Source of the DNA: an uncultured beta proteobacterium
GTDB taxonomy: Bacteria > Pseudomonadota > Gammaproteobacteria > Burkholderiales > Burkholderiaceae_F
NCBI GenBank assembly: GCA_963801035.1
Contig: CAWDDF010000010.1
Location: 212,496 to 276,495 of the forward strand
Reading direction: 5' to 3'
DNA length: 64,000 bases
The notes beneath the pieces were generated by a model that had not been told where the DNA came from, did not search any database, and worked only from the letters and a program-made list of their open reading frames with translations. Below, piece by piece: positions 10,349 to 40,000 of the stretch (positions are counted from its first letter, which is position 1; each line of letters begins with the position of its first letter). Made by a program: the position numbers and the translations under genes.

Positions 10349-11327
10349 CTACTGCTGAATGTCCGCGAGGCGGACACGCGGGTCGAGCGCCGAATACATC
10401 AGATCGACCACCAGGTTGATCGTGATGAACATGAACACGACGACCAGCAAATATGCGACGACGACCGGGCGATCGAGCTGAAAGATTGAATCGATCACCA
10501 GCTTGCCCATGCCGGGCCACGCGAAAATGGTTTCAGTGACGACCGCGAATGCAATGACCGAACCGAGCTCGAGCCCGATCACGGTGATCAGCGGAATCAT
10601 GATGTTCTTCAGCAAGTGGACGCCGATCACGCGCCGGTTGGTCAATCCCTTCGCGCGCGCGAACTTGATGTAATCGAGCAGGCTTTGCTCGCGCACCTGC
10701 GCGCGCGTCAGCCGGATGATCAGCGACAGCTTGAACAGCGCCAGATTGATCGCAGGCAGCAGTGCGTACTTCAACCCTTCAACATTGAAGATCGACAGTT
10801 GCAGTCCGAGCACGTCGGTGGTCGGTCCGCGCCCGGTCGACGGCAACCAACCGAGCTGCACAGCGAATATCAGAATCAAGATGAGACCGACCCAGAAGGT
10901 CGGCAGCGAAAAACCGAGAATCGATCCGGCCATGATTGCTTTGGCGCCTGCGCTGTGGGGTCGCAATCCTGCGTAAAGCCCCAAAGGAATTCCGAGTACG
11001 ACCGCGATCACCATTGCCAGAAATGCGAGCTCGAGCGTTGCCGGCATGCGCTCGAAAATCACTTCGAGCGCGGGCCGTGCGTAAACGAACGAGTTGCCGA
11101 GGTTGCCGGTGAACGCGCCACCGATAAAGCTTAGGTACTGTTCGTGAATCGGCTTGTCGAGTCCGAGCGCCTTGCTTGCGCGCTCCTTCTCGATCTGATC
11201 GGCGGCAGGATTGACGAGAATTTCTACCGGATCGCCGATCAGATACAGACCCGGCAAAGACAAGCAGCGACGTGACGGCGAGAACCAGCGCAGTCTGCGC
11301 CAGGCGCCGCAGAACGTAGACGGTCAC
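10349..11327 (-). CDS. Peptide-type ABC transporter permease (DppB/OppB-like), interrupted by one apparent frameshift
   Basis: The N-terminus MTVYVLRRLAQTALVLAVTSLLVFAG lies in the 10779..11327 frame. It continues as LYLIGDPVEILVNP… in ORF 10349..11263. The shift is at the ccggg run near 11250-11252. Confidence 0.8.
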
Positions 11328-24802: not shown

Positions 24803-25388
24803 CTACACAGCTTGACCGCTCTGACGCCGAAAACAACTGGCCACTACCAGGGCCATACCCAGCAGCGCCAGCGTGCCAGGCTCTGGAACTTGGCCACCGC
24901 CCGGGATCCCGTAGAAATTGACGTGAGACAGGCCACCACCTTGTTGGTCCGTTTTGATGAGGTCCCAATCGTAGACGCCAGAGGCCAGCATTGATTTCAG
25001 CGAGTAGACGAACCATTCGTCGGGATTGTTGCCAGTGCCAAACTTGAAGGCGACGGCGATATCGCTGTAAATATCCCACAGGGAACCATCAAACGTAAAT
25101 GTCCCCCACGCCTCGGTTTGGTTGTTATCTTGTAGTAAATAACAGTTCGTCTTTGCTGATGAAATCGTAAGCACCACCAACGCCGTCAAGGAACAAATCG
25201 TTCCCCTCATTACCCGTCAGGTTGCCCACACCCGCATCCAGGCAGGCCGAAACGATGTCACTGTCGACAAGCATGTGGTAATTGGTGACGACCTGGCAAA
25301 GAACGGGAGCGGCGCTAGCCGTCCCAGTCATCATTAACCCAATCAGCAGGCTCGCCGCTAATCCCTTTAGCTTTTTCAAAGTTCGCAT
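24803..25388 (-). CDS. PEP-CTERM-anchored secreted protein, interrupted by one apparent frameshift near 25140-25150
   Basis: The N-terminal piece has a signal peptide (MRTLKKLKGLAASLLIGLMMTGTASA; ATG 25388 follows a gagggaag RBS). The C-terminal piece ends in VPEPGTLALLGMALVVASCFRRQ, which is a PEP-CTERM sorting signal. The gene is visibly more AT-rich than its flanks. Confidence 0.75.
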
Positions 25389-25781
25389 GTTCGTTACTTC
25401 CCTCAAGAGTTGTTACCCGCCAACCTTGAAGGTGCATGAACTGTTCCAACGTGAAATTTGGTCAACGAAACAAGCGCGTGGTTTTTTGTACCCACTGTGC
25501 ACTGCTGAAGACGTAAGTTTTCTCGACAGCGTGTGAGGACTCACGCGTGGCGCGCTAATCGAGACGGATGTAACGGATTCGCGCCGTTTAAATTGAGCGT
25601 GATCGCGCCGAGAAATCAGCAGCGCGTCGCGCAGTGCGTCACAGTTAATCGATACGCGGCGATCTGATTCAACATGCGCAAACGTTTCAGCGCATGGCGC
25701 ATTGACAGCGCGGCGGAGATAACGACATCCTTCGCCGCAATGTTGACGCGATGCCGAAGTGACGTGCGATCGACAGCAGAG

Positions 25782-27212
25782 CTAGCGGCGGCCGTTGCTC
25801 CGCTTCGGCGATTGCAATTCGGCCAGCATGCGACGCGTTTGATCGAGAATGCGGCCGTCGATCTTGTCTACATGTAAGTCCCGTAGCAGCGCTTCGAGCT
25901 CCGTACGCGCTGGTGCGGTCTGCCCCGCGTTGGCAAGCAGCACGGCGTGCATATAGCGCCACACGGAAATATCGCCCGAGCGCACGGTCGACCGCGGAAA
26001 GAGCCAGTCGAACGTGGCCAGATGCGCATCGGGCGGCAGGATCGCAAGGAAGGACGAACGATCATCAATCGTGAACAGGTACGGGTAATACGCCGCGCTC
26101 CATAGACGATTGCGAAGCGAATCGGTTATCGCTTCGCCCGAGAGCCGCATATCGTTGGCCACGATGACCGCATAAGGCACGAACTTCGCACGCGACAGGC
26201 TGCCGCCGAATTGCATCGAGCGGACGAACTCGCGCTCGCGGCCACTCGCGACCGCCCTCTCGAAGTGCTGGCGTGCTTCCGAGTCCCGATCGCGAAACCA
26301 CAGATGTTGGCCCCACATCGCGTGGGCATAGACGTTTTCCGGCTCCTCTTTGATTGACCGCTGGAACTGCGCCGCCGGGTCACCGGCGGCAGCGCCTTCG
26401 CGTGCCAGTAGATAGTCAGCCCAGCCTAGGTGCGCGAATAGATCCGCTGCATGCTGCCCGGTCGCGTTAGGCAGCGCTGCCACCAGTACCGGCTGCACCC
26501 GCTTGACGATATCGGCGAATGTCTGCTCGCCGACGCGGATGCGAATCTCACGCAGCCACCGCATGCCGCAGTGCTCGCGCGCGCGATGCAGCGCTGCATC
26601 CGACGGATAGCGCGCGACCAGTTCGTCGAAGCGGTTCCACGCCGCTGCATGGGAGCCGGACATGCACAGCTCTGCGGCTGATGCGGTCTCGCGGGCTGTT
26701 TGCTCGTGCTGCGCTCGCTCGGCCGCGCGCTGTTGCCACACGTAGGCGAACGCGCCAGCACCCATCGCCGCGACGACGGTGAGACCAATCACCGTAAACA
26801 GCAGCGGCCGGGCGCCGCGGTTTCCCATCTGGGTGACCGCGGCCAGCGTTTCGGCGACCAGCTCACCCTGCGGTTGCAGCAGAGTCACGGCCTTCAGATA
26901 GGGCGGGATCGACGCCATCGGGGTCGGTGCGACGACCACCGGCAACACGCGACCGCGTGGGTGGCGCCAGCGTTGCTGCGCTAGATTCAACTCGGCGAGT
27001 GCGTAGCTACCGGCCGCGACCGATTCCGGCGAGACGAGGAAGATGAACACGTCGCACTCGGCGATCGCCTCGCGCAGCTCGGCATCGAAAGGCTGGCCCG
27101 GTTCGAGTTCATGGCGGTCGACAAAGCAGTGATGACCTTCGGCGTCAAGGGCAAGCTGCAACCGCTCGCACAGGTCTCGGTACTTTGACGAATATGAGAT
27201 GAAGATATCCAT
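25782..27212 (-). CDS. Membrane-anchored TIR-domain protein with C-terminal helical-repeat (TPR-like) extracytoplasmic region
   Basis: The N-terminus is MDIFISYSSKYRDLCERLQLALDAEGHHCFVDRHELEPGQPF…CDVFIFLVSPESVAAGSYALAEL (TIR_2 pattern with a candidate catalytic Glu). A single TM helix follows (LLFTVIGLTVVAAMGAGAFAYVW), then about 300 aa of alpha-helical repeat-like sequence. Its start is 26 nt downstream of the stop of the second tube gene. Confidence 0.8.
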   Translation of the reverse strand: MDIFISYSSKYRDLCERLQLALDAEGHHCFVDRHELEPGQPFDAELREAIAECDVFIFLVSPESVAAGSYALAELNLAQQRWRHPRGRVLPVVVAPTPMASIPPYLKAVTLLQPQGELVAETLAAVTQMGNRGARPLLFTVIGLTVVAAMGAGAFAYVWQQRAAERAQHEQTARETASAAELCMSGSHAAAWNRFDELVARYPSDAALHRAREHCGMRWLREIRIRVGEQTFADIVKRVQPVLVAALPNATGQHAADLFAHLGWADYLLAREGAAAGDPAAQFQRSIKEEPENVYAHAMWGQHLWFRDRDSEARQHFERAVASGREREFVRSMQFGGSLSRAKFVPYAVIVANDMRLSGEAITDSLRNRLWSAAYYPYLFTIDDRSSFLAILPPDAHLATFDWLFPRSTVRSGDISVWRYMHAVLLANAGQTAPARTELEALLRDLHVDKIDGRILDQTRRMLAELQSPKRSNGRR

Positions 27213-27238
27213 CGGCTCGGCTCGACAACCCAGGTCGG

Positions 27239-27676
27239 CTACGACCTCTTCCGACGCGTCGGCGTTGCCGAACCGAATGACGCCGAAAATGCGTCAATCT
27301 CGAGCTCGAGAGTTTCAACCAATGGCTCGTTGCCGAGCGCGTTCAGGTGTGACAACGAGTAGCCACTCGGGCGGGCGTTATCGAACGTCCAGCGATTGGC
27401 GTCAGCTCCACGCTCATCGATTAACACCACGGTAACGGCTCGCTTCGGCGCGGTTCGAGATGTCCGGGACTGATCCCACCATGCGTACCATTCCGGTGAA
27501 CGGGTCACGCCGCGCCTGAGGATCAGCGGCCCGTACTGAATGGCCTTCGACTTGCGTGGACCGGTAATCAAGCGTGCTTCCGGGAAAATCACCTCGACCG
27601 CGCCGGTTTCTTGCAACCCGTCGATCTCGATGCGAAAGCGCATGTTGCCGAACGGCTCACGCTCCGCAGTTTTCAT
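27239..27676 (-). CDS. Phage tail-tube-like protein (T4 gp19 / TIGR02241 family), paralog 2
   Basis: MKTAEREPFGNMRFRIEIDGLQETG…LILRRGVT…VTVVLIDERG…LNALGNEPLVETLELE. It shares the RFR-IEIDGLQ, L-RRGVT and LNA-GNE…E-LEL blocks with paralog 1. ATG 27676 is chosen inside track ORF 27239..27763. Confidence 0.75.
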   Translation of the reverse strand: MKTAEREPFGNMRFRIEIDGLQETGAVEVIFPEARLITGPRKSKAIQYGPLILRRGVTRSPEWYAWWDQSRTSRTAPKRAVTVVLIDERGADANRWTFDNARPSGYSLSHLNALGNEPLVETLELEIDAFSASFGSATPTRRKRS

Positions 27677-27720
27677 ACGCAAATCGATTGTGTCCAGTGC
27701 GCTTTCGGGATCGTCTCGGC

Positions 27721-28155
27721 TCACGACACTCGTTCGATGCCCTCGTTCGCGAGCTCCAAGCATTCGATGAAAACCTCATTACCTTTGGCGTTGAGATCGC
27801 TCGGATCGTATTTTGTCGGCCATGCGTTAGTCACGACAAAGCGTGCTCTGTCGTCGCCGCCTTCGCCCAAGACAACGATCACGACATTTCTTCGATTCGT
27901 GTTCAGTTGACCTTGGACGATCTGCTGGTGCCACTGGAACAGTTCGAGCGAATCAGTCACGCCGCGTTTCAGGGTGACGTTTCCGAACTTGGTGAGTCCA
28001 GATAACTTTCGTACACGTAAAGGCTCGTTTCCCTCGCGATAGTCTATTGCTTCGGTAGTTGTGGCACCGATCGCGACTTCGCTAAAGCCGGCCACCTGCA
28101 GCCCATCGATCTCCAACCGGAATCGAGCATTGCGTAGCGGGTCTTGGCGTGCCAT
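27721..28155 (-). CDS. Phage tail-tube-like protein (T4 gp19 / TIGR02241 family), paralog 1
   Basis: MARQDPLRNARFRLEIDGLQVAGFSEV…IDYREGNEPLRVRKLSGLTKFGNVTLKRGVTDSLELFQW…VVIVVLGEGG…LNAKGNEVFIECLELA. This pattern is typical of eCIS/Afp1-type tube proteins. A GGAG RBS lies 7-8 nt upstream of the start. Confidence 0.8.
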   Translation of the reverse strand: MARQDPLRNARFRLEIDGLQVAGFSEVAIGATTTEAIDYREGNEPLRVRKLSGLTKFGNVTLKRGVTDSLELFQWHQQIVQGQLNTNRRNVVIVVLGEGGDDRARFVVTNAWPTKYDPSDLNAKGNEVFIECLELANEGIERVS

Positions 28156-28333
28156 CGGTTACTCCGTGCTGATAACAGGTTTGTTGTACTCAAAACGACA
28201 TTGTCGATTATTCACATCAATGGTGACGTAAAACCATTATTCCCTGCGCGGTGTTGGCAGACTATTCTCCGTGCTCGAAGCCGCCGGCGTTTTACGAAAC
28301 GAGCGGCTCGTAACATTGATGGGGAACTCTGCA

Positions 28334-30883
28334 ATGAAACGGTTGACGTATGCGGTCGCGCTGGTGGCAATGTGCATGGCGATCGGAGTCGCCGCCGTTT
28401 CGAGAGACACTGCGCCGCCGTGGGTCGTGGCGCAAGCTCCGGCGGCTACTCCCTCGGCTCCTGCCCCAGAGAGCGCGAGTAAATCAACGCCTGACCACCC
28501 GGGCTTCTACCTTGGCGAGGCGCAGCTGACTGCATCGGAGCGCGCCGGGCGCGAGATTTGGTACAAGGCCACTGCCGGAAACGCGCGCTTTCACACCTAT
28601 GTCTTTCAGCAGCGTGTCAACGTACTGATCGACTGGTATCGCGTGCTCAACGCGAAAGAACGCGGCGACCGCTTCGCTGCGTGGGGAATCATCAATGACC
28701 CGGGCTGCTGCATGCCAGGATCGAAGGATTGTCCGGCGACCAGCCTCGAGCAGACCTACGGATTCGAGTGGTGCCCGGGCGACGACGAGTTGCTGAAGTT
28801 CGTCGGACGCGCCGGCTATCGCGATCCGGCGTGCGACTTCAACGAAGCGCCGATCGATCCCGCCGATTTGCACCACAAGGCAAAGGACCAGCGTCAGTCG
28901 TCGTGCGACCTCGCGTTTGGTACTTCAACCGGAGGATTGGGCTATCGCAAGTTTCCGAATCCGCGCTTCGACCGGGCGCGCTGGCTCAAGGTCAATGGCA
29001 GCCTCGCGAGCTGGGAAGGTTATCGAGGCGCACTGTCGAAGGATCCGAAGTCGAGCGATTCGGCCCTGAACCGCTTGGCTGACGGTTCGATCGAGCCGCC
29101 GTTTCTGATCGGAACGACCTGCGGCTCGTGCCACATTTCGTTCGATCCGCTGAATCCTCCGAAGGACCCAGCCAATCCGGAGTGGGCCAACCTGAAAGGC
29201 GGTCTTGGCAACCAGTACTCGCGCGTATCGGAGATCCTGACCTCTGGCATGTCGGGCGCGACGCTCGAAGCGCAGATGTTCGCGCATGCGCGCCCGGGTA
29301 CGTCGGACACTTCTGCCATCGCGACCGACCAGGTGCACAACCCCGGCACGATGAATGCGATTATCAATACAAAGGTGCGGCCGACCTTCGCGGGCGAAAA
29401 TGTCACCCGTTGGCGCAAGGCGGCGAGTTGCTCGCAGCAGGACGCCAATTGCTGGTGCGAGCCCGGCCGCGACAACAAGTGTTGGCAGCGCGGTGCTGCG
29501 ACCGAGACCGTGCATCACATCCTCAAAGGCGGCGAAGACTCGATCGGCGCGCTCGAGGCGATCCAGCGCGTGTACTTCAACATTGGCTCGTGCTCCGAGC
29601 AGTGCTGGGTGAACCATTTGACGGACCTGCGCCAGCTCGATCCGACCCAGCGCAATTTCGGACAAACGCCGTTCGACATCGGTCAGTGCCGACGCGACTG
29701 TCCGAACTTCCGCGCGATCGAAGATCGCTTGCCCGACATCCTTGCGTTCTTGACGTCGAAGGAAACCGATGCGACAGACCTCGCTGTTGCTCGAGCCAAC
29801 GCGAAGCAGGCGGTGAATGCCAAAGCCGCATACACGAGCGCGGATTTGCACCGCGATCTCGATAAGCAGTTCGGCGCCAATGCCGTTGCGCGTGGACGCG
29901 AAGTGTTTGCGACCACGTGCGCGCGCTGCCATTCGTCGATCGCAGAAACGCCGGAAAATACATTCAAGAATCGCGACTTCAGCGCCGTCGGCGCAAATGG
30001 CATGCGCACCGACTGGTTGGGGTCCGACCGGGCGACGCTGGCGACCGAAGTCGGTTCCAATCGCTGCCGCGCATTGCATTCGAACCATATGAACGGGCAA
30101 ATATGGCAGGAGTACGGCTCCGAGACGCTGCGTGCGCGGCCGACCGATCCGAACATCAAGGAACCGCACGATGGCGGCCGTGGCTCTTATCGCAACATCT
30201 CGCTGCTATCGCTGTGGGCGCACGCGCCGTTCATGCACAACAATGCGATCGGTCCCGAGCTCTGCGGTCAGCCGGCCAACAAGGCCAACCAGTTCTATCG
30301 CTCGCCGTACGTCGACGAGAACAAGAAAACGCTGCCGGCCGACAAGGCGCCCGCGTGCTGGGCTTATGACCCGAGCGTCGACGGCCGTTTCAAGCTGTAC
30401 GTCGCATCGATGGAAGAACTGCTGAACCCGAGCAAGCGTGTTCCGAAGCTGTCGCGCTTCGATAAGGACGTGCGCATCGCGCTCGGGCCGCGAACCTGGG
30501 ACGGCAAGGAAGAGAAGCAGATTCTGGGTTTCACGCTGGTGTTGCCGGCGGGAACCGGTGTCGGCGCGATGGCAAGCTTCCAGCACAAGGCCTTCGTCAA
30601 CGACCTGATCGTCGCCAAGCTAAGACCCGACGAACTCAATGCAAAGCTGACGAAGCAACTCGGCGAAGCCGAAGGCAAGCGAGTCGCTGCCGATCTGCAC
30701 GCTGTCACCAGTGAGATCGCCAAGGACCCGGAGCATTTGGTCGATGCGGTCAAGCGGTATCCGCGTCTGGTCGAGGTGTATAGCTCGTGTACCGCGGATA
30801 TCGAAAATACCGGCCATCGCTTCGGTGAGGATCTGCCGGACGCCGACAAGAAGGCGCTTATCGCCTTTCTGGCCACACTATGA
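28334..30883 (+). CDS. Secreted di-haem c-type cytochrome, CCP/MauG-like C-terminal region
   Basis: Signal peptide MKRLTYAVALVAMCMAIGVAAV. Two CxxCH motifs: CGSCH at 29120-29134 and CARCH at 29918-29932. LSLWAHAPFMHNNAIGP and the C-terminal DADKKALIAFLATL resemble cytochrome c peroxidase family endings. Confidence 0.7.
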   Translation: MKRLTYAVALVAMCMAIGVAAVSRDTAPPWVVAQAPAATPSAPAPESASKSTPDHPGFYLGEAQLTASERAGREIWYKATAGNARFHTYVFQQRVNVLIDWYRVLNAKERGDRFAAWGIINDPGCCMPGSKDCPATSLEQTYGFEWCPGDDELLKFVGRAGYRDPACDFNEAPIDPADLHHKAKDQRQSSCDLAFGTSTGGLGYRKFPNPRFDRARWLKVNGSLASWEGYRGALSKDPKSSDSALNRLADGSIEPPFLIGTTCGSCHISFDPLNPPKDPANPEWANLKGGLGNQYSRVSEILTSGMSGATLEAQMFAHARPGTSDTSAIATDQVHNPGTMNAIINTKVRPTFAGENVTRWRKAASCSQQDANCWCEPGRDNKCWQRGAATETVHHILKGGEDSIGALEAIQRVYFNIGSCSEQCWVNHLTDLRQLDPTQRNFGQTPFDIGQCRRDCPNFRAIEDRLPDILAFLTSKETDATDLAVARANAKQAVNAKAAYTSADLHRDLDKQFGANAVARGREVFATTCARCHSSIAETPENTFKNRDFSAVGANGMRTDWLGSDRATLATEVGSNRCRALHSNHMNGQIWQEYGSETLRARPTDPNIKEPHDGGRGSYRNISLLSLWAHAPFMHNNAIGPELCGQPANKANQFYRSPYVDENKKTLPADKAPACWAYDPSVDGRFKLYVASMEELLNPSKRVPKLSRFDKDVRIALGPRTWDGKEEKQILGFTLVLPAGTGVGAMASFQHKAFVNDLIVAKLRPDELNAKLTKQLGEAEGKRVAADLHAVTSEIAKDPEHLVDAVKRYPRLVEVYSSCTADIENTGHRFGEDLPDADKKALIAFLATL

Positions 30884-31788
30884 GGCTCAGCGCCATGAAT
30901 CAAACTCATAGGACGTCGTTGCTGTTAGTCGCAATTGCAGCGTCCGTCGCGCTGGCGGGTTGCGGTGACACGCCTCCCGCAGGAATCAAATTTGGTCCGT
31001 ATCAGGCGGGCCATGCGTCGAAGCCCGACCTCGCGCGCGTCGAGCACGAATTTCCGCTCGCTCGCAGCGATCTCGCGCAACTGACACCCGGCGCGCTGAA
31101 GTCGTACGACCAGGAGCAGATGGATCAGATCTATGCGCGCCTAACTGCGGGGCCGATTCCTGATGGTGCTTACGAAGGCGACCTGTTTTTCCCCAAGGGA
31201 ATTTCAGGTGATCGTCGCATACGGGAGATCATCGGTGGCCTGTCCGGACTCGCAGCCGGGGTTGGCACGGCCAAGGTAGAACTTGTGGGCAAGCATCTAT
31301 GGCGCGGCAAAGTGTTCTACCGCGACGAGTTGGTGCTCAGAAATCGGATCGACGATACGTCGCTGTTGAAGCCGTTGATCGACGGTGATCTGTCGACGAT
31401 TCCGAAGGTCACGGTTGGCGGCAAGGATCAATGGCTGATGTTCCCCGCGCGCCTTTATTGCGGGCAGAGCCTGCTCGATTCGCGCAGAGAGTCAGTCATC
31501 ATCGACTACTTCTACACCGACGAAATTCCAGGCTATCGCGAGCGCCCCGATTTTCTCGCGGGACGTCGTGGCCTGCAGGTGCGCGATGAGATCCGCATGG
31601 TGCGGCCTGGCTTCTATTTGGGGCGCGCTTACATCGGAAAGATTTTTCTTCTTAATTTCACGCTCTACAACAAGGAAGTCGCCGAGCGAGACGGTGGCAC
31701 GTTTACCAAAGGCGAACCGGTCAAGGAAGACTGCTGGCAAGGCACGCAGCAGCGACCCCTGCTAACAGCGGTGACGGCTTCGAAGTGA
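30880..31788 (+). CDS. Lipoprotein of unknown function
   Basis: The ATG overlaps the upstream stop (ATGA at 30880-30883). The signal peptide and lipobox read …LLLVAIAASVALAGCG. There is no haem motif. Confidence 0.6.
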   Translation: MRLSAMNQTHRTSLLLVAIAASVALAGCGDTPPAGIKFGPYQAGHASKPDLARVEHEFPLARSDLAQLTPGALKSYDQEQMDQIYARLTAGPIPDGAYEGDLFFPKGISGDRRIREIIGGLSGLAAGVGTAKVELVGKHLWRGKVFYRDELVLRNRIDDTSLLKPLIDGDLSTIPKVTVGGKDQWLMFPARLYCGQSLLDSRRESVIIDYFYTDEIPGYRERPDFLAGRRGLQVRDEIRMVRPGFYLGRAYIGKIFLLNFTLYNKEVAERDGGTFTKGEPVKEDCWQGTQQRPLLTAVTASK

Positions 31789-33698
31789 GATGGCGGGCGT
31801 GGCCGATGTGGAAGCAGCGCGCGGCGACACTTGTCTTGACTGTCACCGCGCTTGCCGTGCCCGTTAGCGGCGCTGCTGCGCCCGCATGGGCGATAGACCC
31901 GGCAGATCCTGGCGCGAATCGGCCCGCGCTAGGGCAATCGTTGTTCGACCAAATCACCGCGGAAGGCGTGCCGTTTCCATTCGACGCACTCGTGCGCAAG
32001 ATTGAAAACACCGCAGGCTGCCAATCAGGTAAGTGCATCACTTCTGCGCTGGTTCCATTTAGCCGTTCGCTGCAGCGAATGGCTGCAGCTCCAGACTTTT
32101 TTTCTTTCCCACGCGTCATTGCGGCAATGACCGCCGATGGCAGCAGCCACCTGCTCGTCAAGGATCGCGTTTACCTCGGTTATCAAGAGCGTGCAGGTCT
32201 GATCGAAGTCATCAGCTACAACGAGGCAGCTGCCCGATTCGAGTTTCAGCTGGTGCGCAACTATCGCTCACAAGGCAACCCGGAGACGGTTTACGCGAGC
32301 CGCGCCATCTGTACTGCATGCCACCAGAACCACGGGCCAATTTTTTCTCGGCAGCAATGGGACGAAACGAATGCCAACCCGCGCGTTGCGGCTCGACTCG
32401 CGTCGGCAAACGGCCAAGCACGCGAGCAGATGTACGGCGTGACGATTCGGCGCGGCGTTGACTTGCCTAACGCGATCGACGATTCAGCAGATCGAGCCAA
32501 CCTGTTTGCGGTGGTGCACCGTATCTGGCGCGACGCATGCGACGCTGCGTGCCGCGGCGATGCTCTGCAGGCAGCTCTGCAATATCGGTTGTCACAAGAG
32601 CAGGGATTCGAGGCCAAACCTGCTTTCGCTGGAGCACTGGCTCAGCGCTTTGCTGCGCGATGGGCGAGCGGGCTGGCGATTCCGAATCCCGATCTTCCGA
32701 ACCGTGATCCGCTTGCATCTGCTGACGCGCACGATGTGGGTGCCGCTTTCGAAGCACTGGCCCCCAGACCGCCAATTGAAATCTGGAGGGGCGACGATGC
32801 GCTTCTGGTATCCCGGTTCGTTGCCGGCCTCGCGTCGTTGCTCGCCGAAGTCGACATACGCGAGCTTGACGCCGCCCTGACGCGCCGCGCGTCCGAAGCG
32901 GTTCGACGCAAATACACCGCGCGCTGTTCGCTGAATGGCGAACGTTTTGAATGCACAGGTGACGTAAGTCTGAGCGGTACCCATTCGATGATCGATCGCT
33001 TGTCGCTTGGCGGCAAGGAGTTGACGCGACTCGAACTGCGCAACGGCGCTGTGAGGCGCCAGGGTATGACCGCGCGCACGGTGAGCGGCGATGCGATCGA
33101 GCGCATCGAGCTGCCGCGCCGAGGCAGCTCGGGCACCGCGATCGTCACAGTCGTCGAGGACTTCGCTCCTGCTCGCGCTTCAGTAGCAAAAGGTGATTGG
33201 AGCGGGCCGTCATTTACACGCGCGCGCGTGCGAGCGACCCTGGGGTTGCCGCCGATGAATGCGTGTTGCGGGCCGCGTACTTCAGCGGCCCCCGCTGAAG
33301 ATGCGATCGTCGCATCGTCAGTTCCTGCACAAGCCACCGCATTCATTGCGCCGTGCGCAGCTTGCCATCGAACGGCAGAGCGCTCGCCGCCTAACTTTCT
33401 TGCCGGCGATGCACAGCGAGTCAGCGCCAGCCTTGCTCAGTGCGCGCCCCGGATGTTCGTACGTCTTTCGATGTGGCAGTCATCTGCAGCGTCACGCGCC
33501 AAGGTGCCGATGCCGCCGCCGCGCGCGTCGCATGGCGGCAACGTATCGCTGCAGACCACCCCCGATTCGTCGGTGTCGGCGTTGCAGGGGGCCGTTGCCG
33601 AGTGGTTGCGCGCCGAGTCAGGGCAGGCGCCCGACCTTGGCGCGATGTTGGCACGCGGCTATGAAAACTTACGGCCCTGCCTAGCGGCGAGTCAATAG
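31785..33698 (+). CDS. Secreted di-haem c-type cytochrome of unknown function
   Basis: GTGA overlap with the upstream stop; an alternative ATG is at 31806. The signal-like N-terminus is MWKQRAATLVLTVTALAVPVSGAAAPAWA. CxxCH motifs are CTACH at 32310-32324 and CAACH at 33354-33368. Confidence 0.65.
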   Translation: MRWRAWPMWKQRAATLVLTVTALAVPVSGAAAPAWAIDPADPGANRPALGQSLFDQITAEGVPFPFDALVRKIENTAGCQSGKCITSALVPFSRSLQRMAAAPDFFSFPRVIAAMTADGSSHLLVKDRVYLGYQERAGLIEVISYNEAAARFEFQLVRNYRSQGNPETVYASRAICTACHQNHGPIFSRQQWDETNANPRVAARLASANGQAREQMYGVTIRRGVDLPNAIDDSADRANLFAVVHRIWRDACDAACRGDALQAALQYRLSQEQGFEAKPAFAGALAQRFAARWASGLAIPNPDLPNRDPLASADAHDVGAAFEALAPRPPIEIWRGDDALLVSRFVAGLASLLAEVDIRELDAALTRRASEAVRRKYTARCSLNGERFECTGDVSLSGTHSMIDRLSLGGKELTRLELRNGAVRRQGMTARTVSGDAIERIELPRRGSSGTAIVTVVEDFAPARASVAKGDWSGPSFTRARVRATLGLPPMNACCGPRTSAAPAEDAIVASSVPAQATAFIAPCAACHRTAERSPPNFLAGDAQRVSASLAQCAPRMFVRLSMWQSSAASRAKVPMPPPRASHGGNVSLQTTPDSSVSALQGAVAEWLRAESGQAPDLGAMLARGYENLRPCLAASQ

Positions 33699-33711
33699 AA
33701 AGGAGATTGTT

Positions 33712-35299
33712 GTGAACGAGCCGTTTGATGAACCACGCGCGCACGGCTGGCTCACTCGCTTGTACCGTCATCGCTGGGTACGTGTCGTGATGCTCGCTCT
33801 CGCAATTCCGACTGCTGCGGCATTGGTGTTCGCGATCCTGCTGTGGCAACGCTTCGGCAGCGATCGTGCCGTCGAATACGCGGCGGTCGAAGAACACTTC
33901 AAATACGGATCGACCGGCGGTGAGCGCGCGTCGGGATTTCCGTATTGGATCTTCAAGGCAATGCCGGGTGTGTGCTCGAAGCATCTGCCGGGGGGCTATG
34001 CATCGCTCGGCTTCGTGTACGAGGAGGGCAAGGACTTGCCGATAGGCATGTCGATGCGCAACTACCAGGGTATCGATCGCACGTTTCTGAACTGCGCGGT
34101 ATGCCATGTCAGCACTGTGCGCGATACGCCGGAGTCAAAGCCGCGCATCGTTCTTGGCATGCCCGCGAATACTTTCAACCTGTTCGGCTTTCAAAGGTTC
34201 GTCTTCGACTGCGCACGCGATCCAAAATTTTCGACCGAGCTACATCATTGCCGAGATCGAGCGGCTGATGACCGACAAAGGCGAGAAGCTCGGGCTGCTC
34301 GATCGCCATCTGGTGTACCCGGTCGCCGTCGCATTGATGCGCGAGCGGCTGATGATGCTTTATGGACGGCTCGGCCCGTTGCTGCAGGACACTGACTGGG
34401 GGCCGGGCAGAACCGACACGTTCAATCCGAACAAGATCCTTTTCAACTTTCCGCTGGACAAAATTCCTGAGCGCGAGCGCAACGCCGCGGTCGACTTTCC
34501 GTCGATCTGGCTGCAGAAGCCGCGGCAGGGAATGCAGTTGCATTGGGACGGCAACAATGTGATGTCCGAGGAGCGCAACAAGAACGCAGCGTTCGGTACC
34601 GGGACAACACCGCCGACGATCGACCTCGCTGCCATTGCCCGCCTCGAACAATGGCTGCTAACGGCGGAGCCGTTGAAGTATCCGTACCCGATCGATGCGG
34701 CCAAATCGGCGCGCGGGCGTGAGATCTACACCGAATATTGCGCGGGCTGCCACGGCGCCGACGGCCGCACCTTCAGCGCGGCCGCTGGAACACAGACGCG
34801 TGAATGTGTGAACACGACTGTCAGCGATGACGATCTTTACGGCCCGCAGGTCGGCAAGATCACGCGCATCGAGCACATCGGCACCGATCGGCATCGGCTC
34901 GATTCGTTTTCGTACGACGTCGCGGTGCACCTCGGCACCGTGTACGCCGGTTATCCGCATCGCTACTGCCACTATCGCAAGACCTACGGCTACGCGAACA
35001 TGCCGCTCGACGGCATATGGCTGCGAGCACCGTATCTGCACAACGGTTCGGTGCCGACGCTGCGCGCGCTGCTCGAGCCGGCGAAACGCCCGGCGGTGTT
35101 TTATCGCGGCAACGACGTCTATGACCAGCAGGACGTGGGCTTCGTGGCCGATCTCCCTGAGCAGGCAGGGCGCCGCTTTTCCACTTACGACACAAAAAAA
35201 CCCGGCAACTCGAATGCTGGCCACGAAGGCAAGCTTTACGGTACCGAGCTGAGCCCGGGCGACAAGGATGCATTGATCGAATTCATGAAGACGTTCTAA
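33712..35299 (+). CDS. Membrane-anchored di-haem CCP/MauG-like cytochrome, interrupted by one apparent frameshift near 34222-34232
   Basis: An aaggag RBS lies 6 nt before GTG 33712. There is an N-terminal TM helix. CAVCH is at 34093-34107 and CAGCH at 34739-34753. LRAPYLHNGSVPTLRALL and the C-terminal DKDALIEFMKTF are present. It is collinear with the intact paralog at 35310. The frames switch at the ccaaaattttcg run. Confidence 0.75.
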
Positions 35300-35309
35300 G
35301 GATCAAACG

Positions 35310-36770
35310 ATGGCCGTTAAGAACAAGTCGGGTTGGAACTGGAAAAAGATTCTTGGCCTGTTTTTGATATTTGGCGTCGTATTCGGCTTTTACGGTTGGT
35401 ACAAGTTCTTTCGCGAGGAACCTCAGGAAGCCTGGATGACCGCAACGCCTGAGATGCGCTTCCGCTATGGCTCGATCGGCGGCGAGCGCGACGCAGGAAT
35501 CCCGTACTGGATCTTCTATGTGTTGCCGCGGCTTTTCCCAGAGAAGCTGCCGGGTCCCGGCGGCTACGCGTCGCTCGGCGTGTCATGGGAGCAGGGCAAA
35601 GAGCTGCCGATCGGCTTCACCAAAAAAACGATCGGGTTCCCGCGCGTGGGCAACAACTGTGCGGCGTGCCACACGACCAACTATCGCGCGGCGCCGAATG
35701 AAAACCCGGTGTTTCTGAATGCGGGGCCGGGACACACGCTGAACCTGGAAGCGTTCTTCCGCTTTCTTGTCGATTGCGCCAAGGATCCGCGCTTCAATGC
35801 CGACAACCTGATGCGAGAAATCAATCTCGTGACCGATCTGCCGTTCGACGACGCGCTCGCCTATCGCTTTCTGATCATTCCGATGACAAAGAAGCGATTG
35901 CTCGAGCGCGAGGCGCAGTTCGCTTGGATCTACCGCAAGGATTTTCCTGATTGGGGGCGTGGTCGGGATGATTCGATGAACTTGACGAAGTACTTCATGC
36001 TCAATCTGCCAATGGACAACACGTTCGGGCCCGGAGACATTCCGTCGATCTGGAACCTGAAGAAGTACAACGTCGCTGGAACCACAATGAACTGGTCGGG
36101 CGACAGCCACGACGCGTATTCGGTGATCATCGATTCCGCGCTGGGTGTGCTCGGCGCGCCGCCAAAGAGTAACGACGAGTTTCTCGAGCAGATCAATTGG
36201 CTGCAGGATTACCTGAGCAATAAGCCAGCGCCGAAGTATCCATTCGCCATCGACGCTGCACGCGCCGAGGCCGGGAAAGCGGTCTTCGACCAGCAATGCG
36301 CGACATGCCACACCAGCGACAAAACAGGTCGCCGCATGCCGCTCGCCGGCATCGATACCGATCGCGGACGAATGGATACATGGAACAAGGACAACGCAAT
36401 CGCAGCTAACAAGGTCGTGACCGAAATGGGCATCATTCGCAAGGGACTGGTTGAAGCGCCACTCGATGGATACAACCCGCCGTTTCTCGACGGCGTCTGG
36501 GCGCGCGGACCGTACCTACACCACGGCGCGGTGCCTACGCTGCGCGATCTGCTAGAACCTCCGGCGAACCGTCCCAAGGTTTTTTGGCGCGGCTACGACC
36601 TTTACGACCAGAAGAATGTCGGCTTTATCTCGAACGGTCCGGAGGCCGAGCGCGTCGGTACGAAGTTCGATACCAGCGCGCTGGCCAACGGCAACGGCGG
36701 TCACGTTTTTGGCACGACGCTGCCGGCCGTGGAGAAGGAGAGTCTGCTTGAGTACCTGAAGACGCTGTAA
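35310..36770 (+). CDS. Membrane-anchored di-haem CCP/MauG-like cytochrome (intact paralog)
   Basis: N-terminal TM helix ILGLFLIFGVVFGFYGWYKFF. CAACH is at 35658-35672 and CATCH at 36297-36311. ARGPYLHHGAVPTLRDLL and the C-terminal EKESLLEYLKTL are present. Blocks shared with 33712..35299 include F-YGS-GGER and G-PYWIF. Confidence 0.8.
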   Translation: MAVKNKSGWNWKKILGLFLIFGVVFGFYGWYKFFREEPQEAWMTATPEMRFRYGSIGGERDAGIPYWIFYVLPRLFPEKLPGPGGYASLGVSWEQGKELPIGFTKKTIGFPRVGNNCAACHTTNYRAAPNENPVFLNAGPGHTLNLEAFFRFLVDCAKDPRFNADNLMREINLVTDLPFDDALAYRFLIIPMTKKRLLEREAQFAWIYRKDFPDWGRGRDDSMNLTKYFMLNLPMDNTFGPGDIPSIWNLKKYNVAGTTMNWSGDSHDAYSVIIDSALGVLGAPPKSNDEFLEQINWLQDYLSNKPAPKYPFAIDAARAEAGKAVFDQQCATCHTSDKTGRRMPLAGIDTDRGRMDTWNKDNAIAANKVVTEMGIIRKGLVEAPLDGYNPPFLDGVWARGPYLHHGAVPTLRDLLEPPANRPKVFWRGYDLYDQKNVGFISNGPEAERVGTKFDTSALANGNGGHVFGTTLPAVEKESLLEYLKTL

Positions 36771-37028: not shown

Positions 37029-40000
37029 ATGCAAATGCATAACTTTGACGCACCGGTACGACCGCTTCATCTCGCGGCCGTGCGAGACGCCGCGTTACTG
37101 ACGATCTCGTTGTCGGATTTGCGCTCGATCGCGATCGTCGAACCTGTGGCGATGGGTCCTGATGCGCTCGAAGACCTTGCGCGTTCCGTCGAGCGACTGC
37201 ACGACCTGCCCGTCGGTAACAGCCAGCAGGTCGCGGAGGCAGGCAGTCTCATCTTCCGCACGCTTTTCCCTGGACGTATCGGCGCTACTTTGCATAGCAG
37301 TCCCCCGCGCGAGCTCCACCTGCAGTTGAGCGCGCCGGTGACTGGCATTGCGTGGGAACTAGCGTTCGATGGCACCAGCTTTCTCGGCACCAAGTTCAGC
37401 GTGTCCCGATACATAGCTGGCGAGGATGAGGTGGCACCGGCCCACTCCTGGGCACCGCTCGAAGAGGCATGCAGAGTCTTGCTGGTCAGCGACGACTCGC
37501 ACTCGACGCAAGCGAGCGCTTATCAAGATCGCATATTGAATTCGCTTCGTGCATTGAAAGAACTTTCACCAACGGCGGCCACAGTCGCAGAACTCAGCCG
37601 AGGGCAATTGCACGACCTAATTGCAGCTTCCGACGTCGTGCATTGCACCGGCTCGCCTGGCGGAGCGCGCGTCTTGCTGGCCGATCTGGCGGCGCTTGCT
37701 CATCCGCCACGGCTGGTCGTCTATGAGTTATACGGCGACCGGAGCACCACCGCCGAGATCAGCACCGATGACGCGGTGCGGCTGTGCGCCGATGCGTCTC
37801 GTATCGGTATCAATGTTGTGATTCGCGCGACGACACCAGGGGACGCGAGCAGTGTGGAGTTCATCATCGACCTCTACCGGCACATCGTGTCGGGCATGAC
37901 CTTCGCCAGCGCCACGCAGCAGGCGCGCGCGGCCAGCGCCGCGAGGAGTGATGCCTGCCGCGTCGATGACCTTTTGGCCATGTATTGCGGTGACAGTGGC
38001 GCGGCGGCATTCGCCCGCGTCGAACGCGACAGCCGCGACGACAGTCAGCGTCAAATCACAATCATGTCGCACGATCTCGTGAACTCTACGCAGCTTATCG
38101 CGCGGCTTGGCGCAGAGGAATACACGGAGTTGCTCGAACGCTATCACGGGGTTTGCGCGCGCATCGTTCGGCGCTATGGCGGGATCAGCGACGAACCGCA
38201 GGGCGATGACGGAATAATGTGTTACTTCGGCACTCCCTTAGCTGACGAAGACGCCAGCGCCCAGTCGATACGAGCCGCACTCGAGATTGTTCAGGCGCTA
38301 GAGGGGTTCGGCGTCGGTGTGCGGGTCGGTATTAGCACTGGGCGCGTAGTGATTCGCGCGGGTCAGCCGGTAGGAGTTGCAGTACACCTAGCGGCGCGGC
38401 TCCAAAGCGTTGCCGAGCCAGGAACGATCGTCGTCAGCAACGCCACGCAGCGCTTGACCCAAGGCCGGTTCGAGTTCGAGCCGATAGCGTCCGCGTTGCA
38501 CCTGAAGGGCATCGCCGAACCGATAGTGGCGTTTCGCGTCGTTAGCGAGCTGCGATTCTCAACTTCCAGTCGATTCGATGCGGCGTTAAGCCTCACACCC
38601 TTCATCGGGCGCGATCGAGAGGTCGCCGTGCTCGAAGGATATTGGCAAACCACTTGCCGGGGTGCCGCGCAAGCGGTGCTACTGACTGGCGAAGCAGGCA
38701 TCGGAAAGTCGCGCCTGGTACGAGAATTTAAAAGCTCGCTGGCGGCGCGAGAGACGCCGACCATAGAATGTCGATGCTCGCCCTATCACACCAGTAGCGC
38801 GTTCTATCCGGTCATCGGCTGGCTGCGCCGCTTGCTGGAAATCCAGGACCACGATGCGCCAGAAACCAGGCTGGCGAAGATCGAGGACAGCGCAGTGGCC
38901 ACGCTCGGCGTTGAGGATGCGGTGACAACCATCGCAACACTCCTGTCAGTGCCACTCGACGGTTTGCGTTCCCCACCGAAACGCTCGCCCGAAAAGCAAC
39001 GGCAGCTGACACTTGATGTACTGGTGCAGTGGATCAAAACAATAGTGCAGGCAGGCCCGCTCTGCGTGTTCATCGAGGATGTGCAATGGCTCGATCCCTC
39101 GTCGCGCGAATTTCTGGAGCGATTGATGGCAAGCGCGAGTTCTTTGCCATTGATGACAATCTTGACGCTGCGTACTGAAGCTGTGGCACCTCGCGCCGAA
39201 GTGCGCATGACATGGGGCGCTTCCTTCCCTTACTCGGAGCTGCCATTGCGCGGCCTGTCCTCGGCTGCTGCACGCACTATGGTGCTGAAGGCCTGTGGCG
39301 ATGCGCGCCTGTCCCAGGAGATGGTGCGCCTGCTCGCCGAGCACGCTGACGGCGTACCCCTATTTATCGAAGAGTCGACACGCATGGCGGTCGAAGCAGT
39401 GCCCGAACAGGGTGAGCTGCAAGCCGCCGCGCTGCTGCGTAGTCCGGTGCCGCCCACGATCCACGATCTGCTGATGGCGCGGCTAGATCGCGTCGCCGCG
39501 GCCAAGCAAATTGCTCAGGTCGGTGCCACGATTGGACGCGAGTTCTCACGGGCGCTGATCGAATCGGTGCTGCAGCACGAGGCAGCGGGTATCGACGCCG
39601 GCGGCTTGCGATCCAAGCTTGACATGCTGGTGCAATCCGGCCTGCTGGTTTCCAGAGGCGGCGGACCGGATGAAGGCTATTTTTTCAAGCACGCACTGGT
39701 GCGCGACACCGCCTATCAATCGCTGTGGGAGAGAGACCGGCAGCGGTTGCACTGCGTTATTGCAAACGTTGTTCAGCACCAATTCGCCGCCCTGGCTGAA
39801 GCTCAACCTGAGCTGCTCGCGTATCACTACACCGAAGGCCGCATGGCCGGTGATGCGGTCGCGTATTGGGAAAAGGCAGCCCGGCGTGCCGCAGCTCGTT
39901 CGGCGCATCTCGAAGCCATCACTCATTTGAATAATGGCTTGGCGCTGGTTGGGAACCTGCCCGACGCGCAGGAGCGCGGCCGTGCCGAACTGCGAATGCA

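What the first reader, a model, noticed from the sequence alone, without database searches (positions are those of the whole stretch)
25782..28155. Orphan tail-tube paralog pair in a three-gene operon with a membrane-anchored TIR protein
Two diverged T4 gp19/TIGR02241-type tube proteins share the blocks RFR-IEIDGLQ, L-RRGVT and LNA-GNE..E-LEL. They are followed after 26 nt by a TIR-TM-helical-repeat protein on the same strand. No sheath, baseplate, spike, tape-measure, AAA+ ATPase or capsid gene lies within about 25 kb on either side. This is therefore not an eCIS, T6SS or prophage tail module. A tube pair retained alone and coupled to a TIR effector suggests exaptation, perhaps as an oligomerising scaffold, a decoy/sensor for phage tail assembly, or a conduit partner. 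That interpretation is speculative. The gene trio itself is directly visible.
Basis: partly seen in the sequence, partly recalled or inferred. Interest (0 to 1): 0.8.

Follow-up and report, generated by a model that had tools for sequence, protein, structure and literature searches.

The report
Orphan injection-tube gene pair beside membrane TIR
The three genes are real and intact. However, the pair of injection-machine tube genes is a free-standing cassette found in many unrelated gene neighbourhoods, and the membrane TIR protein is a separate widespread family, so only one narrow group of soil Betaproteobacteria has them joined in one probable operon.

Summary
On the minus strand lie tube1 (27721-28155), tube2 (true start 27682, to 27239) and, 26 nt later, a 476-aa TIR-transmembrane-TPR-like protein (25782-27212). 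No other contractile-injection (CIS) gene was detected in the 64-kb window.

- **Tube pair:** tube1 is 76% identical to tubes inside complete eCIS loci. tube2 belongs to a small family of 86 clusters. In all seven genomic contexts examined, tube2 follows a tube1-type gene with no sheath or baseplate nearby and with unrelated downstream genes.
- **TIR protein:** it belongs to a large, mostly Burkholderiales family. 56 of 62 species-level loci have no tube gene.
- **The trio:** it occurs only in the clade whose TIR is at least 79% identical. It was broken up in one sublineage.
- **Selection:** all three genes are under purifying selection (dN/dS 0.04-0.26).

Best reading: two pre-existing modules were juxtaposed and are probably co-transcribed. 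Neither module generally requires the other.

Two results keep real coupling open. A KSB1 genome independently has a tube gene directly upstream of a TIR-less homologue of the membrane protein. One genome shows all three genes decaying together. The function of the orphan tube cassette is unknown.

The parts
27721..28155 (-). tube1: Afp1/Pvc1-type CIS inner-tube protein, 144 aa
   Evidence: PF06841 E 3e-40 and TIGR02241 E 7e-40. 76% identical to the tube gene inside two complete eCIS loci. Best solved relatives are the AlgoCIS tube 7adz (7e-22) and the Anabaena tCIS tube 7b5h. dN/dS 0.04-0.19. GGAG lies 10 nt upstream of the ATG.
27239..27682 (-). tube2: diverged tube paralogue, 147 aa from ATG 27682. 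It lacks the ~13-residue 'IDYREG..P..VRKL' segment and has a basic C-terminal tail RRKRS.
   Evidence: PF06841 E 2e-18. AF2 pLDDT 82 with Foldseek hits to tCIS tube, Afp5, Pvc5, AlgoCIS and Hcp. The family has only 86 clusters. It follows a tube1-type gene in every context examined. Alignment. dN/dS 0.17-0.26.
25782..27212 (-). TIR-TM-TPR-like protein, 476 aa, whole gene
   Evidence: More than 328 full-length homologues. AF2 pLDDT 90. dN/dS 0.12-0.17.
26823..27212 (-). TIR domain (residues 1-130), predicted cytoplasmic; invariant Glu74 in 'SYALAEL'
   Evidence: TIR_2 E 2e-20. E74 is invariant in 51 homologues. It aligns with the Glu of the 'WCxYEL' motif of TLR TIR domains. Weak hits to ThsB and SAVED-TIR models cover the TIR domain only.
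26739..26804 (-). Single transmembrane helix (residues ~137-158)
   Evidence: Kyte-Doolittle 19-residue maximum 2.14 at residue 137. It forms part of a long helix 138-184 in the model.
25803..26735 (-). C-terminal all-alpha TPR-like domain (residues ~160-470), inferred periplasmic. Conserved motifs 'ADLxAHLGW', 'AHAMWG', 'FVRxLQ'. C183 and C215 are invariant in the TIR-fused Burkholderiales forms.
   Evidence: No Pfam family above threshold. 630 representative clusters at E<=1e-3, mostly ~350 aa (tail+TM+domain) or ~475 aa (TIR+TM+domain). Cross-phylum alignment. Foldseek gives only generic TPR hits at E~1e-3.
28156..28270 (.). 115-nt divergent intergenic region between tube1 and the RoxA-like gene; presumed promoter region of the operon
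   Evidence: Sequence. No consensus sigma-70 match on the minus strand. In L034, loss of this region together with the tube1 5' end goes with decay of all three genes.

Best explanation
The locus is a composite of two modules that exist independently elsewhere. They were brought together in the ancestor of one genus-level clade of soil Betaproteobacteria (Burkholderiales).

**Module 1: an orphan CIS tube cassette (tube1 then tube2).**
- tube1 is an almost unchanged Afp1-type inner-tube subunit.
- tube2 keeps the Hcp/gp19 barrel but has lost one ~13-residue surface segment.
- Inference: the two form Hcp-like rings or a short hetero-oligomeric stack. tube1 would be the stacking subunit and tube2 an adaptor or cap-like partner.
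- What the cassette does without a sheath in cis is unknown.

**Module 2: a stand-alone inner-membrane TIR protein.**
- It has a cytoplasmic TIR domain with the catalytic-position Glu, one TM helix, and a TPR-like domain that I infer to be periplasmic.
- Inference: it acts as a transmembrane sensor-effector. A periplasmic or envelope cue would drive oligomerisation and switch on NAD+ cleavage or signal-nucleotide production by the TIR domain. This parallels the TIR-CHASE2 protein encoded elsewhere in the same window.

**In this clade** the TIR gene sits 26 nt behind tube2 and is probably transcribed from the tube promoter. Neither module generally needs the other.

**Shown:** gene identities, folds, selection, distribution and contexts.
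**Inferred:** ring formation, membrane topology, sensing, NADase activity and co-transcription.
For: **The tube cassette is autonomous.**
- All seven distinct contexts of tube2-type genes have tube1 followed by tube2, with no CIS genes within +-8-10 kb.
- The downstream genes are unrelated: the TIR-TM protein here, Rick_17kDa_Anti, DUF6988/GmrSD_N, Peptidase_S8, none (next gene convergent), GST_C, and ApbA.
- The tube2-type family is small, 86 clusters. tube1-type proteins merge into eCIS tubes, 76% identical to two complete eCIS loci.

**The TIR family is autonomous.**
- 62 Burkholderiales species loci were recovered, 56 of them with at least 1 kb upstream. Only the 6 in the clade with TIR >=79% identical carry tubes.
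- L002 and L003 show the gene alone, in shared synteny.
- The domain without TIR is widespread in Acidobacteriota, Gemmatimonadota and Bacteroidota. None of the 80 metagenome loci has a tube.

**The junction is not fixed.**
- In L039, three opposite-strand genes separate the TIR gene from the tube pair. L004 (TIR 93% identical) has no tubes within 10 kb.
- The TIR protein shows no clade-specific indel.
- The tube-side flank (RoxA-like, p302, p637) is syntenic across the clade. Retention of the trio is therefore explained by general vertical synteny.

**Topology argues against direct contact.** The tubes have no hydrophobic or signal segment. The domain shared with the L066 homologue lies beyond the TM helix.

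**All three genes are functional.** dN/dS is 0.04-0.26.

**Co-transcription is plausible.** The gaps are 38 nt and 26 nt with no terminator-like site between genes. In L034, loss of the tube1 5' end is accompanied by decay of the whole unit.
Against: - A second, phylogenetically distant adjacency exists. In L066 (KSB1 MAG) a tube gene is followed 14 nt later by a TIR-less homologue of the TM-TPR-like protein, with no CIS genes nearby. By my rough estimate, two independent immediate same-strand adjacencies between two uncommon families are unlikely by chance (expectation below 0.01).
- The trio persists across synonymous divergence of about 0.9 in at least six species.
- In L034 all three genes are damaged together. 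This is also what a single functional system would show.
- Genome-level co-occurrence of the two families could not be tested.
Confidence: 0.5

Rival explanations
1. The three genes form one functional system in this clade. The exapted tube ring or stack would work with the membrane TIR protein. It might be a six-fold cytoplasmic platform or clamp controlling TIR oligomerisation and NADase activity. Alternatively it might be a partner of the membrane anchor, with the TIR domain as an added output.
For: - The genes lie close together on the same strand (38-nt and 26-nt gaps) with no terminator-like site.
- The arrangement is retained in L001, L005, L006, L007 and L010, and in many metagenome contigs, at dS of about 0.9.
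- L066 shows an independent tube to TM-TPR-like adjacency in a different phylum.
- All three genes decay together in L034.
- All three are under purifying selection.
Against: - Most members of each family occur without the other.
- The L066 partner has no TIR and only a ~25-residue cytoplasmic tail. Any shared interaction could not involve the TIR domain.
- The shared TPR-like domain is predicted to lie on the opposite side of the membrane from the signal-less tube proteins.
- L039 and L004 show the link can be broken while intact tube genes (L039) or an intact TIR gene (L004) are kept.
- The TIR protein shows no clade-specific change.
- Synteny of the flank explains retention.
Confidence: 0.28
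2. The tube pair, possibly with the downstream gene, is an accessory spare-parts module for a complete eCIS encoded elsewhere in the genome. This would resemble orphan hcp/vgrG-effector clusters of T6SS. The TIR protein could then be an associated toxin.
For: - tube1 is as similar to tubes of complete eCIS loci (76%) as those tubes are to one another. It shows very low dN/dS, as if it still had to fit a sheath.
- In L083-85 the orphan pair lies 4 kb from an orphan Phage_base_V spike that is 42% identical to the eCIS spike, next to candidate effectors.
- A TIR-domain eCIS-associated toxin, EAT15, is known (PMC11297309).
Against: - No CIS gene lies in 64 kb here, or within +-10 kb of any orphan pair examined, apart from the spike in L083-85.
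- tube2-type genes were never seen inside an eCIS locus.
- The TIR protein has a TM anchor and a 310-residue extra domain, and its family is mostly found without any tube. It is therefore a poor lumen cargo.
- The downstream genes of other pairs include housekeeping types such as ApbA and GST.
Confidence: 0.14
3. The tube genes are a decaying remnant of a lost eCIS or prophage tail and have no present function.
For: - No CIS partners occur nearby.
- L034 carries damaged copies.
- Frameshifts are seen in some long-read MAG copies: L005 tube1 and L006 tube2.
Against: - Purifying selection is strong. dN/dS is 0.04-0.19 for tube1 and 0.17-0.26 for tube2 over dS of about 1.
- The same two-gene cassette is intact in seven unrelated contexts.
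- No phage relative exceeds 35% identity.
- Frameshifts in nanopore-derived MAGs may be sequencing errors.
Confidence: 0.03

Closest known systems
eCIS of the Afp/PVC type: inner tube Afp1/Pvc1 (NCBIfam CIS1) and tube adaptor Afp5/Pvc5 (CIS5)
   Same: - tube1 is 76% identical to the tube gene that follows the sheath gene in two complete eCIS loci.
- Both proteins match PF06841 and the CIS1/CIS5 models.
- The tube2 model superposes on Afp5, Pvc5, the tCIS and AlgoCIS tubes and Hcp.
- The pair may descend from the 'tube ... Afp5-like tube' genes of such a locus (inference).
   Different: - No sheath, baseplate, spike, cap, tape measure or AAA+ ATPase was found in the window.
- Scores are far below the NCBIfam equivalog cut-offs: 88 versus 220 bits, and 80 versus 260 bits.
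- tube2 is no closer to the eCIS Afp5-like gene (31%) than to the Afp1-like gene (34%).
- tube2 lacks a segment that both of those have.
- tube2-type genes were seen only in orphan pairs.
Orphan hcp / auxiliary hcp-vgrG-effector clusters of T6SS
   Same: Tube-family genes are encoded away from any main cluster and are sometimes next to candidate effector genes. L083-85 even has an orphan spike nearby.
   Different: - The tube family is different: gp19/Afp1, not Hcp.
- No main cluster is known for these genomes.
- The unit is always a fixed heterologous pair.
- The neighbour here is a membrane-anchored protein rather than a small soluble cargo.
Bacterial TIR NADase proteins: Thoeris ThsB, the eCIS-associated toxin EAT15, and TIR-CHASE2 membrane sensors
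   Same: - A TIR_2 domain with Glu at the catalytic position.
- Weak matches to ThsB, SAVED-TIR and FxsC models over the TIR domain.
- The same window encodes a TIR_2+CHASE2 membrane protein with a comparable 'TIR inside, sensor outside' layout.
- EAT15 shows that TIR toxins can be tied to eCIS (PMC11297309).
   Different: - No ThsA, SAVED or other Thoeris/CBASS partner is present.
- The locus is not beside an eCIS.
- The C-terminal TM+TPR-like domain matches no Pfam family.
- That domain defines its own family of 630 representative clusters, most of them without TIR.
- The family sits in conserved housekeeping-like synteny rather than in defence islands.

Membership tests
CIS/phage inner-tube family (PF06841, TIGR02241; Afp1/Pvc1/gp19/Hcp-like) | Profile match above the curated cut-off | tested here: met
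   PF06841: tube1 137.5 bits and tube2 67.2 bits against a cut-off of 28.2. TIGR02241: tube1 136 bits against 62.4, met. tube2 57.6 bits, just below the cut-off.
CIS/phage inner-tube family (PF06841, TIGR02241; Afp1/Pvc1/gp19/Hcp-like) | Hcp/gp19 beta-barrel fold | tested here: met
   tube2 AF2 model (pLDDT 82) hits 78 PDB chains at E<=1e-3, all in the top 45 being tube, adaptor or Hcp chains. tube1 was not modelled; its fold is inferred from 76% identity to eCIS tubes and from PDB sequence hits 7adz and 7b5h.
CIS/phage inner-tube family (PF06841, TIGR02241; Afp1/Pvc1/gp19/Hcp-like) | Assembles into stacked hexameric rings inside a sheath | not testable with these tools
   Needs expression and EM. 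Multimer modelling was not available.
Extracellular contractile injection system (Afp/PVC-type) locus | Sheath gene (PF04984) next to the tube gene | tested here: not met
   No sheath was found in 64 kb or in the L001 annotation. True eCIS loci L086, L087 and the P0238 contig have one directly upstream of the tube gene.
Extracellular contractile injection system (Afp/PVC-type) locus | Baseplate and spike genes (gp25, gp6-like, VgrG/gpD, Phage_base_V, PAAR, CIS_tube initiator) | tested here: not met
   None by tblastn with L086 and L083 proteins. None by Pfam.
Extracellular contractile injection system (Afp/PVC-type) locus | AAA+ ATPase and Pvc16-type cap | tested here: not met
   The only AAA-type hit in the window is an AAA_16 STAND-like cyclase/TPR protein at 37029-41204.
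T6SS-style orphan tube-effector module (analogy only) | A complete main cluster elsewhere in the same genome | not testable with these tools
T6SS-style orphan tube-effector module (analogy only) | Adjacent gene is a soluble cargo small enough for the tube lumen | tested here: not met
   The neighbour is 476 aa with a TM helix and a 310-residue TPR-like domain.
TIR-domain NAD+ hydrolases | TIR fold or profile | tested here: met
   TIR_2 74 bits against a cut-off of 28. Foldseek hits to TIR domains of TLR15, TLR1, RPS4 and SPARTA.
TIR-domain NAD+ hydrolases | Catalytic glutamate in the 'S.W...E' helix | tested here: met
   E74 is invariant in 51 homologues. It aligns with the Glu of 'WCQYEL' in the TLR15/TLR2 TIR domain. 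This is sequence-level evidence only.
TIR-domain NAD+ hydrolases | NAD+ cleavage or cyclic ADPR-isomer production | not testable with these tools
   A biochemical assay is needed.
Thoeris defence system | ThsB-type TIR gene next to a ThsA (SIR2 or Macro/SLOG) effector gene | tested here: not met
   Only weak TIR-domain-level matches to ThsB models (E 1e-6 to 5e-2). No ThsA-like gene lies within +-10 kb.
eCIS-associated toxins (e.g. EAT15, TIR) | Encoded within a few genes of an eCIS operon | tested here: not met
   No eCIS operon is present in the window. The definition comes from PMC11297309.

The most novel reading that the evidence does not exclude
The tube1-tube2 cassette is a domesticated, sheath-independent derivative of an eCIS that has spread as a two-gene unit through soil Betaproteobacteria. 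It would have a real functional affinity for the TM-TPR-like membrane protein family, shown by two independent gene fusions of neighbourhood (this clade and KSB1). In this clade the Hcp-like ring would then act as a cytoplasmic partner, either platform or gate, of a membrane TIR sensor. That would be a new kind of envelope-linked TIR signalling or abortive-infection module built from injection-machine parts.
Probability: 0.22. Interest if true: 0.75.

Novelty: new variant of a known kind. Interest (0 to 1): 0.5.

Why it matters
Orphan hcp genes are well known for T6SS. My searches of the held literature found no description of a conserved stand-alone pair of eCIS-type tube genes.

The pair has three notable properties:
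- It has a dedicated second paralogue, tube2, seen only in such pairs.
- It is under purifying selection.
- It sits in housekeeping neighbourhoods.

This points either to an unrecognised sheath-independent role for tube proteins or to a hidden layer of in-trans eCIS accessories. Separately, the TM-TPR-like domain defines a large uncharacterised family (630 representative clusters). Its TIR-fused form is a conserved membrane TIR protein present in cultured Piscinibacter and Rubrivivax strains, so it can be studied experimentally.

The value here lies mainly in separating the two modules and flagging each.

Tried and rejected
- **Exact-sequence look-up of the TIR protein** found nothing. The 99%-identical P0001 was used instead.
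- **Search for further CIS genes:** tblastn with the 18 proteins of eCIS locus L086 and the seven genes of the L083 orphan-pair locus hit only the two tube genes in the window. Apart from the tube genes themselves, it found no CIS structural gene in the TIR-family loci; the few hits were to eCIS_core, sigma-54 activator, gp6-like and Rick_17kDa queries.
- **Tube HMM search** of all TIR-family and TPR-like-family loci (167 loci) found tubes only in the trio clade and in L066.
- **Upstream genes as hidden tube paralogues:** the 151-aa gene upstream of the L066 tube and the 127-aa gene upstream of the L170 pair were tested. hhalign probability was below 1% and Pfam gave no hit. Rejected.
- **Shared upstream regulatory motif** among orphan pairs: none was visible beyond close relatives.
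- **Assigning tube2 to the Afp5/CIS5 adaptor class:** sequence and fold hits do not discriminate it from Afp1-type. Left open.
- **Neighbour-joining tree of tube1-type proteins:** known orphan pairs do not form one clean clade apart from eCIS tubes. The sequences are too short for firm conclusions.
- **Prophage origin:** the best phage tube is 35% identical, and no close tube2 occurs on plasmids. Rejected.
- **PDB search with the TIR domain alone** found nothing. A profile search was needed.
- **Foldseek on the C-terminal domain** gave only generic TPR superhelix hits.
- **Thoeris, CBASS or retron membership:** only domain-level TIR similarity. Rejected.
- **Literature searches** for tube+TIR, orphan eCIS tubes and membrane TIR-TPR proteins found no prior description.


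Full report
**1. What is there**

Three genes lie head to tail on the minus strand.
- tube1: 27721-28155, 144 aa.
- tube2: the ORF runs 27239-27763. Homologues start about 10 residues before the conserved 'PFGNMRFR', which places the start at ATG 27682 (147 aa), 38 nt after the tube1 stop.
- A 476-aa protein: 25782-27212, starting 26 nt after the tube2 stop.

No terminator-like site separates the genes.

Both small proteins match Phage_T4_gp19 above the curated cut-off (E 3e-40 and 2e-18). Both also match TIGR02241 and the NCBIfam CIS1/CIS5 models.

An AlphaFold model of tube2 (pLDDT 82) superposes on the tube and tube-adaptor proteins of the Anabaena tCIS, Afp, PVC and AlgoCIS, and on Hcp.

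The third protein has three parts:
- an N-terminal TIR_2 domain (E 2e-20);
- one strongly hydrophobic helix at residues 137-158;
- a confidently modelled all-alpha, TPR-like C-terminal domain (pLDDT 90).

Glu74 is invariant in 51 homologues. It aligns with the conserved Glu of the 'WCxYEL' helix of TIR domains, which is the catalytic position of TIR NADases.

**2. No injection machine in the window**

Three searches found no sheath, baseplate, spike, PAAR, cap or CIS ATPase anywhere in the 64 kb:
- tblastn with the proteins of one complete eCIS locus;
- Pfam scans of the called genes on both sides;
- the precomputed annotation of a 99%-identical contig.

**3. Where the tube genes come from**

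tube1 has thousands of homologues, and the best 120 are all 72-99% identical. Two of these, each 76% identical to tube1, lie in complete eCIS loci. Their gene order is AAA ATPase, Pvc16, two unknowns, sheath, tube, a ~135-aa gene, DUF6760, Afp5-like tube, CIS_tube initiator, gpD, spike, PAAR, gp25 and a gp6-like giant. No phage tube exceeds 35% identity.

tube2 belongs to a much smaller family of 86 clusters. It lacks a ~13-residue segment ('IDYREG..P..VRKL') that both the Afp1-like and the Afp5-like eCIS proteins have. In some members, including this one, it ends in a basic tail.

**4. The tube pair is a free-standing cassette**

Every tube2-type gene whose context I could read follows a tube1-type gene, with no CIS genes around and with unrelated neighbours:

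| Loci | Neighbours of the pair |
|---|---|
| This clade | TIR-TM protein downstream |
| L083-85 | Rick_17kDa_Anti protein downstream; orphan Phage_base_V spike 4 kb away |
| L168 | DUF6988 and GmrSD_N downstream |
| L170 | Peptidase_S8 downstream |
| L172, L173 (Casimicrobiaceae) | Nothing downstream; the next gene is convergent |
| L174 | Pair sits at the end of a cytochrome oxidase operon, before a GST gene |
| L176-179 | ApbA downstream |

Pairwise dN/dS is 0.04-0.19 for tube1 within the trio clade and 0.17-0.26 for tube2 there. Values rise to about 0.3 and 0.5 respectively in comparisons with the most distant orphan pairs. These are functional genes, not a decaying remnant.

**5. The TIR protein is a separate family**

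More than 328 full-length homologues exist. Among species-representative genomes, 62 Burkholderiales loci were recovered, including cultured Piscinibacter and Rubrivivax strains. 56 of these have at least 1 kb of upstream sequence. Only six carry tube genes, and all six fall in the clade whose TIR protein is at least 79% identical to the window's. More distant homologues stand alone in a shared, housekeeping-like synteny.

The TM-plus-TPR-like part also occurs without TIR, as ~350-aa proteins in Acidobacteriota, Gemmatimonadota, Bacteroidota and KSB1. It defines a family of 630 representative clusters with no Pfam model. dN/dS for the TIR gene is 0.12-0.17.

**6. How the trio arose and how stable it is**

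Within the clade, the flank on the tube side (RoxA-like gene and two unknowns) is syntenic. The trio has therefore been inherited vertically.

In the sublineage with the most similar TIR proteins, the link is broken:
- L039 (TIR 90% identical) has three opposite-strand genes between the TIR gene and the tube pair.
- L004 (TIR 93% identical) has no tubes within 10 kb.

The TIR proteins of the trio clade are collinear with the stand-alone ones. The simplest history is that two pre-existing modules were juxtaposed once, and the TIR gene then came under the tube promoter.

One Illumina-assembled genome (L034) fits a single transcription unit. Its tube1 has lost the 5' end and upstream region, tube2 has a frameshift, and the TIR gene is frameshifted and truncated.

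**7. What argues for more than coincidence**

In a KSB1 MAG (L066), a single gp19-type tube gene is followed 14 nt later by a TIR-less member of the same TM-TPR-like family. No CIS genes lie within 10 kb. The proteins are only 42% and 33% identical to those in the window, so this is an independent or very old association.

None of the 80 metagenome loci most similar to the L066 protein has a tube. By my own rough estimate, two immediate same-strand adjacencies between two uncommon families are unlikely by chance.

Against a direct physical link:
- The shared domain is predicted to lie on the far side of the membrane from the signal-less tube proteins.
- The L066 protein has only a ~25-residue cytoplasmic tail.

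I could not test genome-level co-occurrence.

**8. Most likely mechanism**

Shown: the identities, folds, selection and distribution above.

Inferred:
- tube1 and tube2 form Hcp-like rings or a short stack, with tube2 as a non-propagating adaptor or cap-like partner.
- The TIR protein is a transmembrane sensor-effector. Its periplasmic TPR-like domain would control oligomerisation and so the NAD+-cleaving activity of the cytoplasmic TIR domain. The TIR_2+CHASE2 protein encoded at 54205-55989 in the same window has the same overall layout.
- In this clade the two modules are co-transcribed but not interdependent.

| Reading | Confidence |
|---|---|
| Two independent modules, juxtaposed and co-transcribed | 0.50 |
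| True three-gene system | 0.28 |
| Accessory module for an eCIS elsewhere in the genome | 0.14 |
| Decaying remnant | 0.03 |

**9. Comparison with what is known**

- The tube proteins are members of the CIS inner-tube family. The profile and fold tests are met.
- The locus is not an eCIS. The sheath, baseplate, spike and ATPase tests are not met.
- The nearest functional analogy is the orphan hcp or auxiliary clusters of T6SS.
- A TIR-domain eCIS-associated toxin, EAT15, is known (PMC11297309). The protein here is membrane-anchored and not next to an eCIS.
- It is not Thoeris, because no ThsA partner is present.
- The literature searches found no description of orphan eCIS tube pairs or of this TIR-TM-TPR-like family.

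**10. Verdict**

The proposed coupling between tubes and TIR is a clade-specific arrangement rather than a general system. The more interesting results are the conserved orphan tube1-tube2 cassette and the uncharacterised membrane domain family. I rate this a new variant of known kinds, with interest 0.5.

Noticed in passing
window 54205-55989 (+) and 55947-56651 (+): A second membrane-associated TIR protein (TIR_2 + CHASE2, 594 aa) is followed by a FecR-domain protein. This genome encodes at least two proteins with the layout 'TIR inside, sensor domain outside'.
   Followed up: partly
window 46749-51965 (-): A 1738-aa giant protein combines a DUF7379/LCAT/PGAP1-type alpha/beta hydrolase, CHAT protease and TPR-S domains, which looks like a conflict-system architecture. 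In L002 the stand-alone TIR homologue is followed by an LCAT/DUF7379/PGAP1 gene.
   Followed up: no
window 37029-41204 (+); L004 6680-9679 (-); L039 6687-9929 (-): The window encodes a 1391-aa protein with Guanylate_cyc + AAA_16 + TPR domains. By my reading of its translation (not Pfam-scanned), a ~1000-1080-aa gene with what looks like the same cyclase-ATPase-TPR layout sits directly upstream of the TIR gene in the rearranged relatives L004 and L039.
   Followed up: no
L083-L085, about 5588-9705 (-) relative to the tube pair at 10001-10914: Another orphan tube pair is divergent from an operon encoding a tyrosinase, a repeat protein with an HExxH motif (by eye a beta-propeller/Zn-peptidase; no Pfam hit), a 199-aa unknown and an orphan Phage_base_V spike. 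The spike is 42% identical to an eCIS spike. The whole looks like an auxiliary cluster of CIS parts.
   Followed up: partly
L066 8989-10996 (+): The KSB1 MAG carries, in order, a 151-aa unknown gene, a single gp19-type tube gene and a 360-aa TM-TPR-like protein without TIR. The genes are tightly spaced and no CIS genes lie within 10 kb.
   Followed up: partly
L034 2684-4395: In an Illumina-assembled Burkholderiaceae MAG all three genes of the trio are damaged together: a 5' truncation of tube1, a frameshift in tube2, and a frameshift plus truncation in the TIR gene.
   Followed up: partly
window 28271-36770 (+): A cluster of large secreted-looking proteins lies divergent from tube1 and is syntenic across the clade. 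The last two (397 and 486 aa) carry RoxA-like dihaem cytochrome c domains. The first three (870, 302 and 637 aa) have no Pfam hit, although I labelled the 870-aa one RoxA-like.
   Followed up: no
window 24803-25406 (-): Two small overlapping ORFs lie in a lower-GC patch downstream of the TIR gene (GC 0.57). The 135-aa one has a weak PEP-CTERM match.
   Followed up: no
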